A DNA stretch of 29,547 bases from an uncultured Myxococcales bacterium. Lineage in GTDB: Bacteria; Myxococcota_A; Polyangia; Palsa-1104; JAEUJZ01. The notes below the pieces were generated by a model that saw only the letters and a list, made by a program, of their open reading frames with translations, was not told the DNA's origin and ran no database searches. The first letter of the stretch is position 1. Every line of letters starts with the position of its first letter. The position numbers were made by a program, and so were the translations under genes. Positions 21,340 to 24,282 of the stretch are shown one piece after another. The DNA is taken from positions 1-29,547 of the forward strand of contig CALFYE010000446.1 of NCBI GenBank assembly GCA_937952145.1, given 5' to 3'.

Positions 21340-24282
21340 CTACTTCTTGCTGGGGGTGGGGGCGCTCGGCGGCTCGGGCTTGCTGGGGCTGGGCTTGCTG
21401 CTTAGGGCTTCGTTCAGCGCGGGCAGGAAGCGCGAGCCTCCGACCACGTCCTTGAGGATCTCGCCCGCCTCTTTGCCGCGGAACAGCGAGACCAGGTTCA
21501 TGTTGCCGGCGACCTCAGAGAGCAGGTTCTTGTCGCCAAGCGCAGTGAGCGCTTCGACAAGCTGCGGCTGCACCGAGGTCCGCTCGGCCACCACCGCACG
21601 CGCCTGCGCTTCGAGGAGCTGGATCTCGATCGCGCGCACGCGACCCAGGTGCTCGACCTCTTCGCCGTGCAGGGTGGCGCTGGCCTGGGCGCGAGTCTTG
21701 GCATCGCGCGCAATCGCTTCCAGCTGAGCGCCCTGTGACAGCCCCTCGCGCTCGACCTTGCTGCGCAGCTCGACCAGCTCGCGCTCCCCGACGAGGCGGA
21801 CCTGCTCGCCCTGCACCAGCTCGCGCTCGCGCAGGTTGGCCAGCTCGGCTTCGTGCTTCAGCTTGCGCACCAGCTCACCAAGCTGGGCTTCTCGCTGCTT
21901 GCCCGCCATCTGCAGCTCGGTCTGCTGTCGCTCCAGCTCCGACCGCAGCTTGGCCGAGGCGACCTTCTCTTGCGCCTGCCTGTCGCCGATGGCCAGCATC
22001 ACCGACTCGCGCTGCACGTTCTTCATCAGCTCGGCGATGACGTTGTCCTGGATCTCGGCTTCGAGGATCTCGACCTCGGTCACCAGCATGCCGTTTTCGG
22101 CAAAGAACCGTCCCTTGCGCCCCTCGCTACCCGGCTCGGTCCCGCGCGGCCCCAGGATGGTGTCGCGCACCACCTGCGACACCTGCGGCCACAGCGCCGA
22201 AAGCGGCATCGTCCGCATCCGACTGCGAACAATCGATCGCAGGTGATCGCACATCACCTGGATGTAGTTCTCGCAGTTGAACCACTTGTCGCGGTGGTCG
22301 CGGTTGAAGGTGACGCTGTAGCTGGTGCGGATGTGGATGCGGACGAAGTCTGAGGTCTCGACTTCGATGATGTCGCCGACGCGGTTGCCGACGGTGCGCA
22401 GGAAGCAGGTCTGCAGTGGGTGGTCGTCGGTCTTGGGGGTGCCGGTGGAGAGGCCGAGCGGCACCAGCGTCTCTTCATATTCGAGGAGGGTGACGCAGGG
22501 GCCCTCGATCACGCGCTGCGCGGCGGCGGAGGTCGCGAGCACGGCGGTGTTGTGCGGCACGATGATCGATACTGCCCACGGAGTGATCATCGATTTGTTG
22601 GTCAGCTTGTGTGGCTCAGCGGGGGCGATCCACAGGTTCCATTCGGCGATCGACAGCGTGCGGGTGATGTGGATTTCTTTGCGTGGATCGACGAGATACG
22701 ACTGCTTGCCGCGGATCAGGCGGACCTCGCCGGTCGTCAGATCGCGGACGTAGATGCCGGATTTCTGATCGATGCCGATGGCTTCGATGAAGACGCCGCT
22801 GTGATCGTTGCCGACCACCGCCTCGCCGGTCTGTGGCGACAGCACTTCGATCTCGTTGAACGGGAAGAAGAAGCCCGACACGCCCGACAACAACAGCTCG
22901 TCGCCGGGGTAGTACATCTCTTTGTCGAGCTGGACGCCGCGCGGCATCTTGGCCGCCATGTCCTCGCGCGAGATCGGGCAGATGACGCGCAGCCACAGCG
23001 CGCGCTGCGGCAGAAGCTCGTACGCATCGTAGGTGCGATTGCGCGAGCCCTTGGTCATGAACGTGTCGTAGGGACCGGGGAAGACGCGGGCCGGGCCGAC
23101 CTTGATCTCGCGCTTGCCATCGGGATCGATGAGCACGCAGAACTCTTTTTCGCCCAGCACGGCGGCGTGACGGACCAGGCGAGCCTGGCGTGCCTCGCGC
23201 TCGATGGCCTTGCGCACGCTGTCGCTGGACAGCATGTCATCAATGCTGGCGGGCGGTGGGGCAGGGGGGCCGGCGTTGCTGGCCGGTGGTGGAGGCGGCG
23301 CGGCGAAGTCAGCCCGCGCCCCGCCCATGGGGGCCGCAGGGGCCACCGCGGCGGGAGCCGGGGCAGCCGCCGGGACTTTGCTTGGCGCCGGGACGCGCTG
23401 ACGGGTGCGCGCGGCTTGATCGACAAATGCCGCCTGCGACTGGTACTGCGCCACGGCGCGCTTGGCTTTGCTGCGCTCTAGCTCGCCTTCTTCGGCATCT
23501 TCGAGCGACAGCATCGGCTCGGCAGGCGGCAGCGGCGGCTGACCTTTGGGGGGCACCGGCCCCTGCAGCTGCATCTGCTGCTGCATCTGCGATACCAGGC
23601 GCTGCGCCGTGACGGCGGACAGCGTCGCTCCCGACTCATCGACCGAGGTATCGGGGACGATGTCGACGCCGGAGGGCGGAATGTAGAACTGGGTGTCGAT
23701 GCCGCGCACGACGATGAGCTGTCCGCGCATCAGCGGCTTACTGGCGGCGGCATCCGGCAGGGCCTGCGGGCGACCATCCAGCGCCTCAGCGGTGGCGCGC
23801 GTGATCGCTGCCGAGCGCACCGTCACCTCGTGATAGGGCGCCGTTGCGTCCAGTGGCCCGTAGACTTTGACGACAAGATACTGGCTGGCTGATAGCTCGT
23901 GCGCGTCGCGCACTTCGGCGCGCTGACCGGGGCGCAGATAGAACGAGCACGGCCCGGGGATCATCGCCCGCGTGCCGTTCTTCAGCGGCCGCGTCTCGTT
24001 GCGACCGACGCGGAAGCGACCATTGGGGCCGCCGTCGTTTTCTAGGAGCGGGTTGTACAGCACCGCGTACTGGTGATCGCCGACTTCGATCAGCCGCTGC
24101 GGGCGGCTGCTAATGTCTTCGCGAAAGCCGCCATCGCCGTCATCGATGACTACGCGGTCGGCTGCGGTCGGCGAGACCATGGTGGGGCCGACGTGCAGCG
24201 TGACCTCACCCTTGTCGTCATCCTGTACCCACAGGAACTGCCTCTCGGTAACAGGAATCTTCCGGCTCCCCCGCTCATTCAT
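21340..24282 (-). CDS. Major vault protein (MVP) homolog: N-terminal MVP repeat domains, a Pro/Ala/Gln-rich low-complexity insertion (~aa 228-350), a shoulder (SPFH-like) domain, a cap-helix coiled coil and a Pro/Lys-rich tail
   Basis: Collinear similarity to rat MVP recalled from memory: [28 protein letters not shown] vs [57 protein letters not shown] vs [82 protein letters not shown] vs [53 protein letters not shown]. GGAGG RBS. Confidence 0.8.
   Translation of the reverse strand: [980 protein letters not shown]

What the first reader, a model, noticed from the sequence alone, without database searches (positions are those of the whole stretch)
23230..23600. ~120-aa Pro/Ala/Gln-rich low-complexity insertion inside the MVP homolog
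Between recognisable MVP repeat domains the protein carries [25 protein letters not shown]...[50 protein letters not shown]. This has no counterpart in the eukaryotic MVP I recall. Without it the length (~860 aa) equals eukaryotic MVP. A disordered loop at this position would project from the barrel wall and could act as a cargo-binding or surface-display module. The C-terminus also ends in a Pro/Lys-rich tail, [19 protein letters not shown].
Basis: partly seen in the sequence, partly recalled or inferred. Interest (0 to 1): 0.5.

Follow-up and report, generated by a model that had tools for sequence, protein, structure and literature searches.

The report
Disordered arm inside bacterial vault protein
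A myxobacterial relative of the vault-shell protein carries, at one junction between its wall-building repeats, a real ~155-residue floppy Pro/Ala-rich arm with a small, strictly conserved arginine-rich motif; a whole bacterial clade shares it, vertebrate vault proteins lack it, and its job is still unknown.

Summary
Window 21340-24282 (-) is one uninterrupted 980-aa ORF, a clear major vault protein (MVP) homolog. Residues 228-351 (the finding's coordinates) lie in an insertion spanning about residues 212-370.

The insertion is not a frameshift and not degenerate repeat sequence. It sits in the short linker equivalent to the human MVP R5/R6 junction. Human MVP and minimal bacterial MVPs have 0-6 residues there.

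It is not peculiar to this genome. All 118 close homologs (57-90% identity, mostly Polyangia) have it, with a conserved layout: helix A, Pro-rich spacer, acidic patch, basic island with the motif DQxARxRxR (Q289, R292, R294 invariant), Pro/Ala spacer, helix B. Spacers change quickly and gain or lose residues. The island is as conserved as the folded body.

This site is the main length-variable hot spot of bacterial MVPs (0-426 aa, several unrelated insert types).

AlphaFold gives pLDDT above 90 on both sides and below 50 in the spacers.

My best reading is a tethered recognition arm, probably facing the lumen. That orientation is inferred from the human PARP4-MVP contact residues. The ligand is unknown.

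It is a new variant of a known kind, of moderate interest.

The parts
21340..24282 (-). Full MVP-homolog ORF, 980 aa plus stop (stop = 21340-21342; ATG = 24280-24282)
23641..24282 (-). Residues 1-214: three N-terminal beta-repeat modules (about 1-57, 58-119, 120-211). The third carries a second variable loop at about 168-184 and ends in the conserved strand [12 protein letters not shown].
   Evidence: AF2 model 2 gives pLDDT about 90; alignments
23569..23640 (-). Residues 215-238, [24 protein letters not shown]: entry to the insert and helix A (AF2 helix 223-239). Conserved as SAxxARQLLxQ across the clade. The Gln run is encoded by a 12-nt tandem repeat.
23512..23568 (-). Residues 239-257: Pro-rich spacer 1 ([19 protein letters not shown]). 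Disordered, fast-evolving, with indels.
23473..23511 (-). Residues 258-270: acidic patch ([13 protein letters not shown])
23392..23472 (-). Residues 271-297: conserved basic island [27 protein letters not shown]. It is 98% identical in the closest homologs while the neighbouring spacers are 40-51% identical. AF2 predicts a low-confidence helix at 268-295.
23395..23421 (-). Residues 288-296: core motif [9 protein letters not shown]. Q289, R292 and R294 are invariant in 118 homologs; A291 and R296 are at 90% or more.
   Evidence: tool positions are true residue minus 1; see the numbering note in the full report
23248..23391 (-). Residues 298-345: Pro/Ala spacer 2 (73% Pro+Ala). Disordered and the most indel-prone part.
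23167..23247 (-). Residues 346-372: helix B ([27 protein letters not shown]), well conserved, returning the chain to the wall. H372 occupies the junction position homologous to human D214/P271.
22393..23166 (-). Residues 373-630: four further beta-repeat modules, equivalent to rat R6-R9
22048..22392 (-). Residues 631-745: shoulder (SPFH-like) domain
21544..22047 (-). Residues 746-913: cap-helix (a single long helix)
21343..21408 (-). Residues 959-980: Pro/Ser/Lys-rich disordered C-terminal tail. Variable among homologs (5-51 aa).

Best explanation
The segment is a clade-specific, intrinsically disordered insertion in the inter-repeat linker of a bacterial MVP, at the position equivalent to the human R5/R6 junction. 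It is built as a tethered arm. Two conserved helices (A, 223-239; B, 347-369) leave and re-enter the shell wall. Two fast-evolving Pro/Ala-rich spacers act as flexible tethers. Between the spacers sits a short acidic-then-basic island that carries the invariant DQxARxRxR motif and probably folds into a helix on binding. I propose that the island is a recognition element held in many copies per particle (78 if the assembly is vault-like), most probably on the luminal face. There it would bind either a polyanionic ligand (RNA, polyphosphate or similar) or an acidic surface of the shell or of a client protein. Shown: the insertion, its layout, its disorder prediction, its clade-wide conservation, and the selective constraint on the island. 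Inferred: the binding role, the luminal orientation, and the ligand.
For: The protein is an MVP. Pfam and PDB sequence hits support this. The AF2 model has mean pLDDT 80, and its best Foldseek matches are human, rabbit and rat vault chains at E=7e-36 to 6e-28. The site maps to human L269-G|V270-VPITTLG, that is R5/R6, where human has no extra residues (the human sequence was verified as 100% identical to PDB 11dr_A). Insert-free bacterial MVPs exist, for example P0141 with PSGIELVNSVRDALVPG. All 118 close homologs carry a 98-175 aa insert with the same order of elements. The motif residues are invariant. The motif is also present, in strict or degenerate form, in 78 genome loci down to about 51% identity. 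In homologs that are 86-88% identical overall, the spacers are 40-51% identical with indels, while the island is 98% identical, like the folded body at 95-98%. AF2 gives pLDDT above 90 on both flanks, below 50 for 241-274 and 284-344, and intermediate values for helices A and B. The composition is 81% disorder-promoting residues. For orientation: the luminal PARP4 MINT domain contacts human MVP Q164, R169, Q172 and D214. These residues lie at the R3/R4 and R4/R5 junctions, at positions homologous to the insertion site. The same paper describes the vault interior as acidic and MINT docking as electrostatic, which gives a precedent for a basic element binding the luminal wall. The site also tolerates 0-426 aa of unrelated inserts, including a PspA/IM30-like domain in P0122, as expected for a solvent-exposed display point.
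Against: No partner is identified. There is no conserved neighbouring gene across 78 loci and no Rfam RNA in the window. AF2 does not dock the island onto the body (pLDDT 40-53). The luminal assignment rests on repeat-to-repeat homology, not on coordinates. In murine MVP the inter-domain linker also takes part in lateral subunit contacts, so the insert could instead affect packing. Nobody has shown that these bacterial proteins form vault-like shells. The closest relatives even carry 3'-truncated genes lacking the cap-helix. Three invariant arginines are suggestive of nucleic-acid binding but do not prove it.
Confidence: 0.5

Rival explanations
1. The insert is a neutral expansion of a permissive loop. 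The junction tolerates anything, and in these genomes it has filled with drifting Pro/Ala-rich low-complexity sequence that has no function of its own.
For: The site is the most length-variable part of the family (0-162 aa in A3, up to 426 aa in representatives). The spacers evolve very fast with indels. A short DNA tandem repeat encodes the Gln run. One locus (L061) carries only a 53-aa poly-Asp filler.
Against: Q289, R292 and R294 are invariant in 118 sequences, and the island is 98% identical where the spacers are 40-51% identical. The order helix A, acidic patch, basic island, helix B is kept throughout the clade. No member of the clade above 51% identity lacks the insert. The Pro+Ala fraction does not track locus GC (Spearman rho 0.13, p=0.28).
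Confidence: 0.15
2. The insert is an assembly element. Because the inter-repeat linker contributes to lateral contacts, the insert acts as an inter-subunit clamp: the basic island would bind an acidic patch of a neighbouring chain. Alternatively, it changes the curvature or copy number of the shell, or regulates opening.
For: In murine MVP, lateral packing uses loops b1-b2 and b3-b4 and the inter-domain linker. The close clade has clade-specific acidic residues in repeat 1 (E13, D21, D23, D47, E55, D56; net charge -4.3 versus -1.1 in other clades). These could be a docking site. The spacers are long enough to reach neighbours.
Against: Insert-free MVPs, bacterial and eukaryotic, have the same body, so the arm is not needed for the fold. 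AF2 shows no docking. The charge correlation is confounded by phylogeny. Variable spacer length (98-175 aa) fits a tether better than a fixed clamp.
Confidence: 0.17
3. The insert is an exterior-facing tether. The arm projects outward and anchors the particle, or unassembled MVP, to the membrane, the nucleoid or another cell structure through its basic motif.
For: The shoulder domain is SPFH-like, and its structural neighbours are membrane-microdomain scaffolds such as flotillin, prohibitin and HflK/C. One relative carries a PspA/IM30-like (membrane-remodelling family) segment at the same site. A paper title and abstract returned (PMC13100048) report that eukaryotic vaults associate with membranes in situ.
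Against: The homologous junction residues in human MVP (Q164, D214) are contacted from the lumen. The insert has no hydrophobic or amphipathic membrane-binding signature.
Confidence: 0.15
4. The insert is an artefact: a frameshift, misassembly or mis-translated region, or simply a diverged MVP repeat.
For: Related assemblies do show breaks in this gene, but these lie elsewhere, at residues 676-713.
Against: The ORF is continuous, with MVP homology on both sides and steady GC3. More than 100 independent assemblies keep the same frame and the same motif. AF2 places no beta-repeat there.
Confidence: 0.01

Closest known systems
Eukaryotic major vault protein (rat/human MVP; PDB 4V60, 4HL8, 7PKZ, 9BW5, 11DR)
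   Same: The domain order is the same: N-terminal beta repeats, SPFH-like shoulder, very long cap-helix, disordered C-terminal tail. There is sequence homology over query 374-932 (E=5e-25) and fold homology (Foldseek E=7e-36).
   Different: Vertebrate MVP has no residues at the insertion point. It has 9 repeats against 7 predicted here. No vPARP/TEP1-like genes or vault RNA are found nearby. Assembly of the bacterial protein has never been shown.
PARP4 (vPARP) MINT domain docking on the luminal face of MVP repeats 3-5 (PMC12280208)
   Same: A basic element meets the vault wall at the level of the central repeats. The contact residues (Q164, R169, D214) lie at inter-repeat junctions homologous to the insertion site. 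This is the best functional analogy for a luminal recruitment module.
   Different: MINT is a folded helical domain of a separate protein that binds in trans. Here the element is a short motif in a disordered arm that is covalently part of MVP. No sequence similarity was tested or claimed.
Arginine-rich internal arms of virus capsid proteins, and cargo-loading peptides of encapsulins (analogy from general knowledge, not tested here)
   Same: These are many copies of a short charged peptide on a flexible tether inside a closed protein shell, used to recruit nucleic acid or cargo.
   Different: Those arms are terminal extensions, not internal insertions. No homology is claimed. The ligand and the orientation are unproven here.
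Other insert types at the same junction in bacterial MVP homologs
   Same: The insertion point is the same, between ...IPPTG(I/V)(E/D)(I/V)V... and ...(V/I)RxAVVLG....
   Different: The content differs. Homologs labelled Patescibacteria carry about 100-120 aa of helical-looking, low Pro/Ala sequence. Labilithrix/Nannocystis-type paralogs carry a conserved QFSxLKNELRHRxDL segment. P0122, P0124 and P0125 carry 250-426 aa charged inserts, and the one in P0122 hits Pfam PspA/IM30. The DQxARxRxR motif is seen only in the Polyangia-type clade.
Pro/Ala-rich flexible linkers of bacterial proteins, e.g. TonB and lipoyl-domain linkers (general knowledge)
   Same: The composition and the likely extended, flexible behaviour of spacers 1 and 2.
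   Different: Here the linkers flank a conserved motif and sit inside a shell-forming repeat array.

Membership tests
Major vault protein (MVP) family | MVP shoulder (SPFH-like) domain | tested here: met
   Pfam PF11978 scores E=3.2e-21, 76 bits (cut-off 25), at residues 634-746. AF2 pLDDT is above 90 there.
Major vault protein (MVP) family | Array of MVP beta-repeat domains N-terminal to the shoulder | tested here: met
   Pfam Vault_3 scores 30.9 bits (cut-off 28.8); Vault_4 falls just below its cut-off. The AF2 model shows 7 beta modules. Foldseek matches murine R1-R7 (3GF5) at E=3.6e-14.
Major vault protein (MVP) family | Nine repeats (R1-R9), as in rat and human | tested here: not met
   There are 3 modules before and 4 after the insert. 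Human has three R3-type repeats where the bacterium has one. The count is read from a predicted structure, so it is approximate.
Major vault protein (MVP) family | Long cap-helix followed by a cap-ring/tail | tested here: met
   A single helix spans about residues 747-914, followed by short helices and a disordered tail. It aligns to the rat cap-helix.
Major vault protein (MVP) family | Assembly into 39-mer half-vaults / closed D39 shell | not testable with these tools
   No multimer prediction or experiment was available.
Vault ribonucleoprotein (complete system) | Partner components (vPARP/PARP4, TEP1, vault RNA) | tested here: inconclusive
   None is found among the window's genes. There are no Rfam hits and no conserved neighbour in 78 loci. 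The rest of the genome was not available.
Intrinsically disordered region carrying a short linear motif | Low-complexity, disorder-promoting composition and predicted lack of structure | tested here: met
   The insert is 81% disorder-promoting residues, with entropy 2.4-3.3 bits against 4.1 in the body. pLDDT is below 50 for 241-274 and 284-344, while the flanks are above 90.
Intrinsically disordered region carrying a short linear motif | Rapid sequence and length evolution, with an island of strong conservation | tested here: met
   Spacers are 11-51% identical with many indels. The island is 98%, 72% and 33% identical in the three divergence tiers, with Q289, R292 and R294 invariant.
Intrinsically disordered region carrying a short linear motif | A defined binding partner for the motif | not testable with these tools
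   No partner could be inferred from gene context.
Arginine-rich RNA-binding motif | Short, helix-prone, Arg-rich peptide | tested here: inconclusive
   The sequence is [26 protein letters not shown]. It has three invariant Arg plus R274 and R296 at 90% or more, and a predicted low-confidence helix. The Arg density is lower than I recall for classical arginine-rich motifs, a comparison from memory that was not tested.
Arginine-rich RNA-binding motif | Binds RNA | not testable with these tools
   This needs an experiment.

The most novel reading that the evidence does not exclude
Polyangia-type bacterial vault proteins may be self-loading compartments. Under this reading, the conserved DQxARxRxR island on its Pro/Ala tethers lines the lumen in about 78 copies and directly captures a polyanionic cargo (RNA or polyphosphate) or a client protein. 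It would do in cis what PARP4-MINT, TEP1 and vault RNA do in trans in eukaryotes. The R5/R6-equivalent junction would then be a natural 'cargo port' that different bacterial lineages have loaded with different modules.
Probability: 0.15. Interest if true: 0.75.

Novelty: new variant of a known kind. Interest (0 to 1): 0.45.

Why it matters
Vaults are among the largest cellular particles, and their function is still unclear. Bacterial MVP homologs are almost unstudied: the searchable literature I found only notes that they exist.

A clade-wide arm with a constrained motif gives a concrete experimental handle. One can mutate three arginines, pull down partners, or look for density in the lumen.

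This one inter-repeat junction tolerates 0-426 residues of unrelated sequence in nature. It therefore also looks like a candidate internal display or packaging site for engineered vault nanoparticles. To my knowledge (not checked beyond the MINT-fusion use noted), these currently rely on terminal fusions or MINT tags.

Tried and rejected
- **First AF2 run.** It used only close homologs (A1) and gave a poor model (mean pLDDT 58.9). I replaced it with a 150-sequence diverse alignment (A3), which gave pLDDT 80.2.
- **Profile search of A1 against the PDB.** The match did not extend into the N-terminal repeats. The junction was therefore mapped through intermediate bacterial sequences and a verified human sequence.
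- **BLAST anchors.** Taken alone they could slip by one repeat. I checked them against the multiple alignment.
- **Gene-neighbourhood conservation.** The window's neighbours (FAD oxidoreductase, RlmL-type methyltransferase) are shared only with relatives at 87% identity or more. No family is shared across the 78 loci.
- **RNA searches.** Rfam found nothing. The only ARAGORN call is a probable false positive.
- **GC bias.** The idea that Pro/Ala richness simply follows GC content found no support among loci (rho 0.13, p=0.28).
- **Pfam.** It finds no known domain in this insert.
- **Literature.** Searches for bacterial or myxobacterial MVP inserts found nothing on the subject.
- **Not attempted.** A database search with the 27-residue island alone would not reach significance in 5.8 billion sequences.
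- **Not possible.** Direct mapping onto 4V60 coordinates could not be done because model and PDB coordinates are not exposed.
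Full report
**Numbering.** Residues are counted from Met1 (ATG at 24280-24282, minus strand). Alignments A1 and A3 and both AlphaFold models were made from window:21340-24279:-, which omits Met1. Positions printed are therefore one lower than the numbers used here (found).

**1. The observation**

The region lies inside a single uninterrupted ORF, 21340..24282 on the minus strand, of 980 aa. A GGAGG sits 8 nt upstream of the ATG.

Third-position GC stays at 0.75-0.80 through the segment. The protein matches MVP on both sides:
- Pfam MVP_shoulder scores 3e-21 at 634-746, with Vault_3 and Vault_4 hits at 501-627.
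- phmmer against the PDB gives rat/human MVP at E=5e-25, with query 374-932 aligned to rat 274-843.

The compositional bias is extreme. The best 48-residue window is 73% Pro+Ala, against at most 42% in the 16 other genes of the window, and no shuffle out of 2000 reaches it. A 12-nt tandem repeat at 23563-23590 encodes the QMQQQMQLQ run. A frameshift or misassembly is excluded, also because more than 100 independent assemblies keep the same frame (see section 3).

**2. Where it sits in the MVP fold**

I recalled the human MVP sequence from memory and verified it as 100% identical to PDB chain 11dr_A. I then aligned it with the query, close homologs, and insert-free bacterial MVPs.

The extra segment lies between ...[25 protein letters not shown] and [16 protein letters not shown].... 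These align to human ...[24 protein letters not shown] and VVPITTLGPHNYCVILD.... That is the short linker between repeats R5 and R6 (rat R5 218-272, R6 273-323). Human MVP has no extra residues there. Insert-free bacterial relatives read, for example, YIPPSGIELVNSVRDALVPGPTQFCVIID (P0141).

A first AlphaFold run with only close homologs was poor (pLDDT 58.9). After a second homolog search, a 150-sequence diverse alignment (A3) gave mean pLDDT 80.2, with above 90 on both sides of the insert. In true numbering the insert looks like this:
- 216-221: low confidence.
- 223-239: helix A (pLDDT 54-69).
- 241-274: below 50.
- 268-295: a low-confidence helix (pLDDT 40-53).
- 284-344: coil, below 50.
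- 347-369: helix B (pLDDT 61-82).
- From 374: beta-strand resumes.

The model's best structural matches are human, rabbit and rat vault chains (E=7e-36 to 6e-28), followed by flotillin, prohibitin and HflK/C through the shoulder domain.

The model shows three beta modules before the insert and four after. That makes 7 repeats against 9 in rat and human, which have three R3-type repeats where the bacterium has one.

**3. Distribution**

The first homolog search returned 254 hits. The best 120 are 907-1013 aa long and, where named, come from Polyangium, Byssovorax, Minicystis and other Polyangia.

All 118 full-length sequences have an insert of 98-175 aa (median 130) between the two anchors. The order of elements is always the same:
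1. Helix A (SAxxARQLLxQ).
2. A Pro-rich spacer.
3. An acidic patch.
4. A basic island ending in (V/I)DQ(S/A)ARxRxR(K/V).
5. A Pro/Ala spacer.
6. Helix B ([25 protein letters not shown]).

This order is seen. Inside the insert, Q289, R292 and R294 are invariant. R274, A291, R296, R357 and A359 are conserved at 90% or more.

A scan of 185,579 species genomes gave 78 loci, again mostly Polyangia. A few MAGs are labelled Planctomycetota or Thermoanaerobaculia. The strict motif is present in nearly all loci at 57% identity or more. A degenerate form (VDQSARNRQVV, VEQAARARHLV, TDQSPRSRQAI) is present in the 51-56% group.

Selection differs sharply between the parts. In homologs that are 86-88% identical overall, spacers 1 and 2 are 51% and 40% identical with indels. 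The basic island is 98% identical, the same as the folded body at 95-98%.

**4. The junction is a hot spot**

In the exhaustive representative search (984 hits), sequences at 31-39% identity and about 820-900 aa have only 0-13 residues at this junction. Others carry unrelated inserts:
- About 100-120 aa of helical-looking, low Pro/Ala sequence in homologs that sources label Patescibacteria/CPR.
- A conserved QFSxLKNELRHRxDL segment in Labilithrix/Nannocystis-type paralogs.
- 250-426 aa charged inserts in P0122, P0124 and P0125 that keep helices A and B. The insert of P0122 hits Pfam PspA/IM30 above threshold (E=2e-11).
- A 53-aa poly-Asp filler in L061.

In alignment A3 this junction is by far the most length-variable segment (0-162 aa). 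The next is the loop at 168-184 (0-85 aa).

**5. Orientation and mechanism**

The cryo-EM study of the human vault with PARP4 (PMC12280208) shows that the luminal MINT domain contacts MVP Q164, R169, Q172 and D214, by electrostatic complementarity with an acidic wall. Q164 and D214 are the residues just before the first strand of R4 and R5. They are homologous, repeat to repeat, to human P271 and query H372, which mark the insertion point. This favours a luminal exit of the arm. I put that at roughly 55%.

Against a simple picture, the crystal structure of murine R1-R7 shows that the inter-domain linker also takes part in lateral subunit contacts in an 18-Angstrom wall (PMC2752026). An effect on packing therefore cannot be excluded.

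My best explanation is a tethered recognition arm. Helices A and B act as the stalk, the Pro/Ala spacers as entropic tethers, and the acidic/basic island as a motif that binds a conserved ligand.

Candidate ligands are a polyanion (RNA, polyphosphate), an acidic patch of the shell, or a client protein. For the shell option, the close clade has clade-specific acidic residues in repeat 1 (net charge -4.3 versus -1.1), but this is a weak lead confounded by phylogeny.

Nothing in the gene context identifies the ligand. The window's neighbours are an FAD oxidoreductase and an RlmL-type methyltransferase, and they are conserved only in relatives at 87% identity or more. No gene family is shared across the 78 loci. 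No Rfam family matches in the window.

**6. Rivals**

- **Neutral drift in a permissive loop.** This explains the spacers but not the invariant island or the conserved layout.
- **An assembly clamp or modulator.** This is compatible with the linker's role in lateral contacts, but the arm is dispensable for the fold in insert-free relatives.
- **An exterior tether.** This is not excluded, but the MINT-contact homology argues against it.
- **An artefact.** This is refuted.

**7. Comparison and novelty**

The protein passes the sequence and fold tests for the MVP family. It differs in repeat number, and its ability to form shells is untested.

Bacterial MVP homologs are known, but the papers I could search only catalogue them and do not mention this insertion. 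I therefore rate the finding as a new variant of a known kind. The new points are three:
- a clade-wide disordered arm;
- a constrained Arg-rich motif inside it;
- recognition of the R5/R6-equivalent junction as the family's insertion hot spot.

Interest is moderate (0.45). The arm is not surprising in kind. It does offer a direct experimental handle on an unstudied particle and a candidate internal display site for vault engineering.

**8. The C-terminal tail**

The Pro/Ser/Lys tail (959-980) is disordered in the model. Among homologs it is 5-51 aa long and poorly conserved. The ...KP..PKK ending is shared only by the subclade at 70% identity or more. It parallels the disordered, Pro-rich C-terminus of human MVP (sequence).

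Noticed in passing
window 21343-21431 (+): ARAGORN calls an 89-nt tRNA-Pro (CGG) that overlaps the 3' end of the MVP ORF, antisense to the Pro-rich tail codons. Rfam finds no tRNA there at gathering score. It is probably a false positive caused by the CCN/GGN-rich sequence.
   Followed up: partly
L079:8001-10157; L001:7918-10125; P0017, P0107, P0112; loci L008, L009, L010, L047: The closest relatives (76-98% identity) carry 3'-truncated MVP genes of 718-737 aa. Homology stops at residue ~676 (...[11 protein letters not shown]) or ~713 and is followed by unrelated sequence. Four other contigs end at or near residue ~676 (matches stop at 666-676). On a 277-kb contig (L079) the truncated gene is followed by unrelated genes, so these copies lack the cap-helix. 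This could be gene decay, a recombination hot spot or an assembly-breaking repeat. The window's copy is full length.
   Followed up: partly
L079:5287-5763 (-): A 158-aa product with a Pfam Profilin (PF00235) hit lies three genes from the MVP homolog in a close relative. It is a second eukaryote-like protein in the same neighbourhood. It is not present in this window.
   Followed up: no
P0122 residues 280-446 (representative protein, 49% identical to the query): The 326-aa insert at the same junction hits Pfam PspA/IM30 (E=2.2e-11, 44 bits against a cut-off of 33.9). It is either a real ESCRT-III-like coiled coil displayed at the hot spot, or a compositional coiled-coil match.
   Followed up: no
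window ~23731-23781 (-), residues 168-184; P0179 residues ~150-195: A second length-variable loop (0-85 aa across the family) lies inside the third repeat. In P0179 it is filled by a tandem QAGGEGQPPKDEESEGT repeat.
   Followed up: no
loci L037+L069, L057+L072, L041+L063: Three MAGs carry two MVP loci each. In two of them (L037+L069, L057+L072) one copy is Polyangia-type and the other is the Labilithrix-type helical form at 36-37% identity. In the third (L041+L063) both copies are of the charged/Pro-rich kind with helix B, with inserts of 146 and 248 aa.
   Followed up: no
proteins P0277, P0286, P0292, P0293, P0314, P0317, P0320, P0365: MVP homologs are widespread in MAGs labelled Patescibacteria/CPR (Parcubacteria, Moraniibacteria, Buchananbacteria), and one is labelled Nanoarchaeia. 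Some have no insert and some have a ~100-aa helical insert at the same junction. I did not see this distribution mentioned in the papers I read.
   Followed up: no
window 2300-5000 and 26000-27300: GC drops to 0.53 at 3001-5000, next to a serine recombinase (2300-3556; Pfam Resolvase plus Recombinase) and two ORFs with no Pfam hit. It drops to 0.56 at 26001-27000, over a 386-aa ORF (26068-27228) with no Pfam hit and a signal-peptide-like N-terminus. These may be horizontally acquired islands.
   Followed up: no
window 23563-23590: A 12-nt tandem repeat (CTGCAGCTGCAT x2.3) encodes the QMQQQMQLQ run at the end of helix A. It is a likely slippage-prone spot and varies among close homologs.
   Followed up: partly
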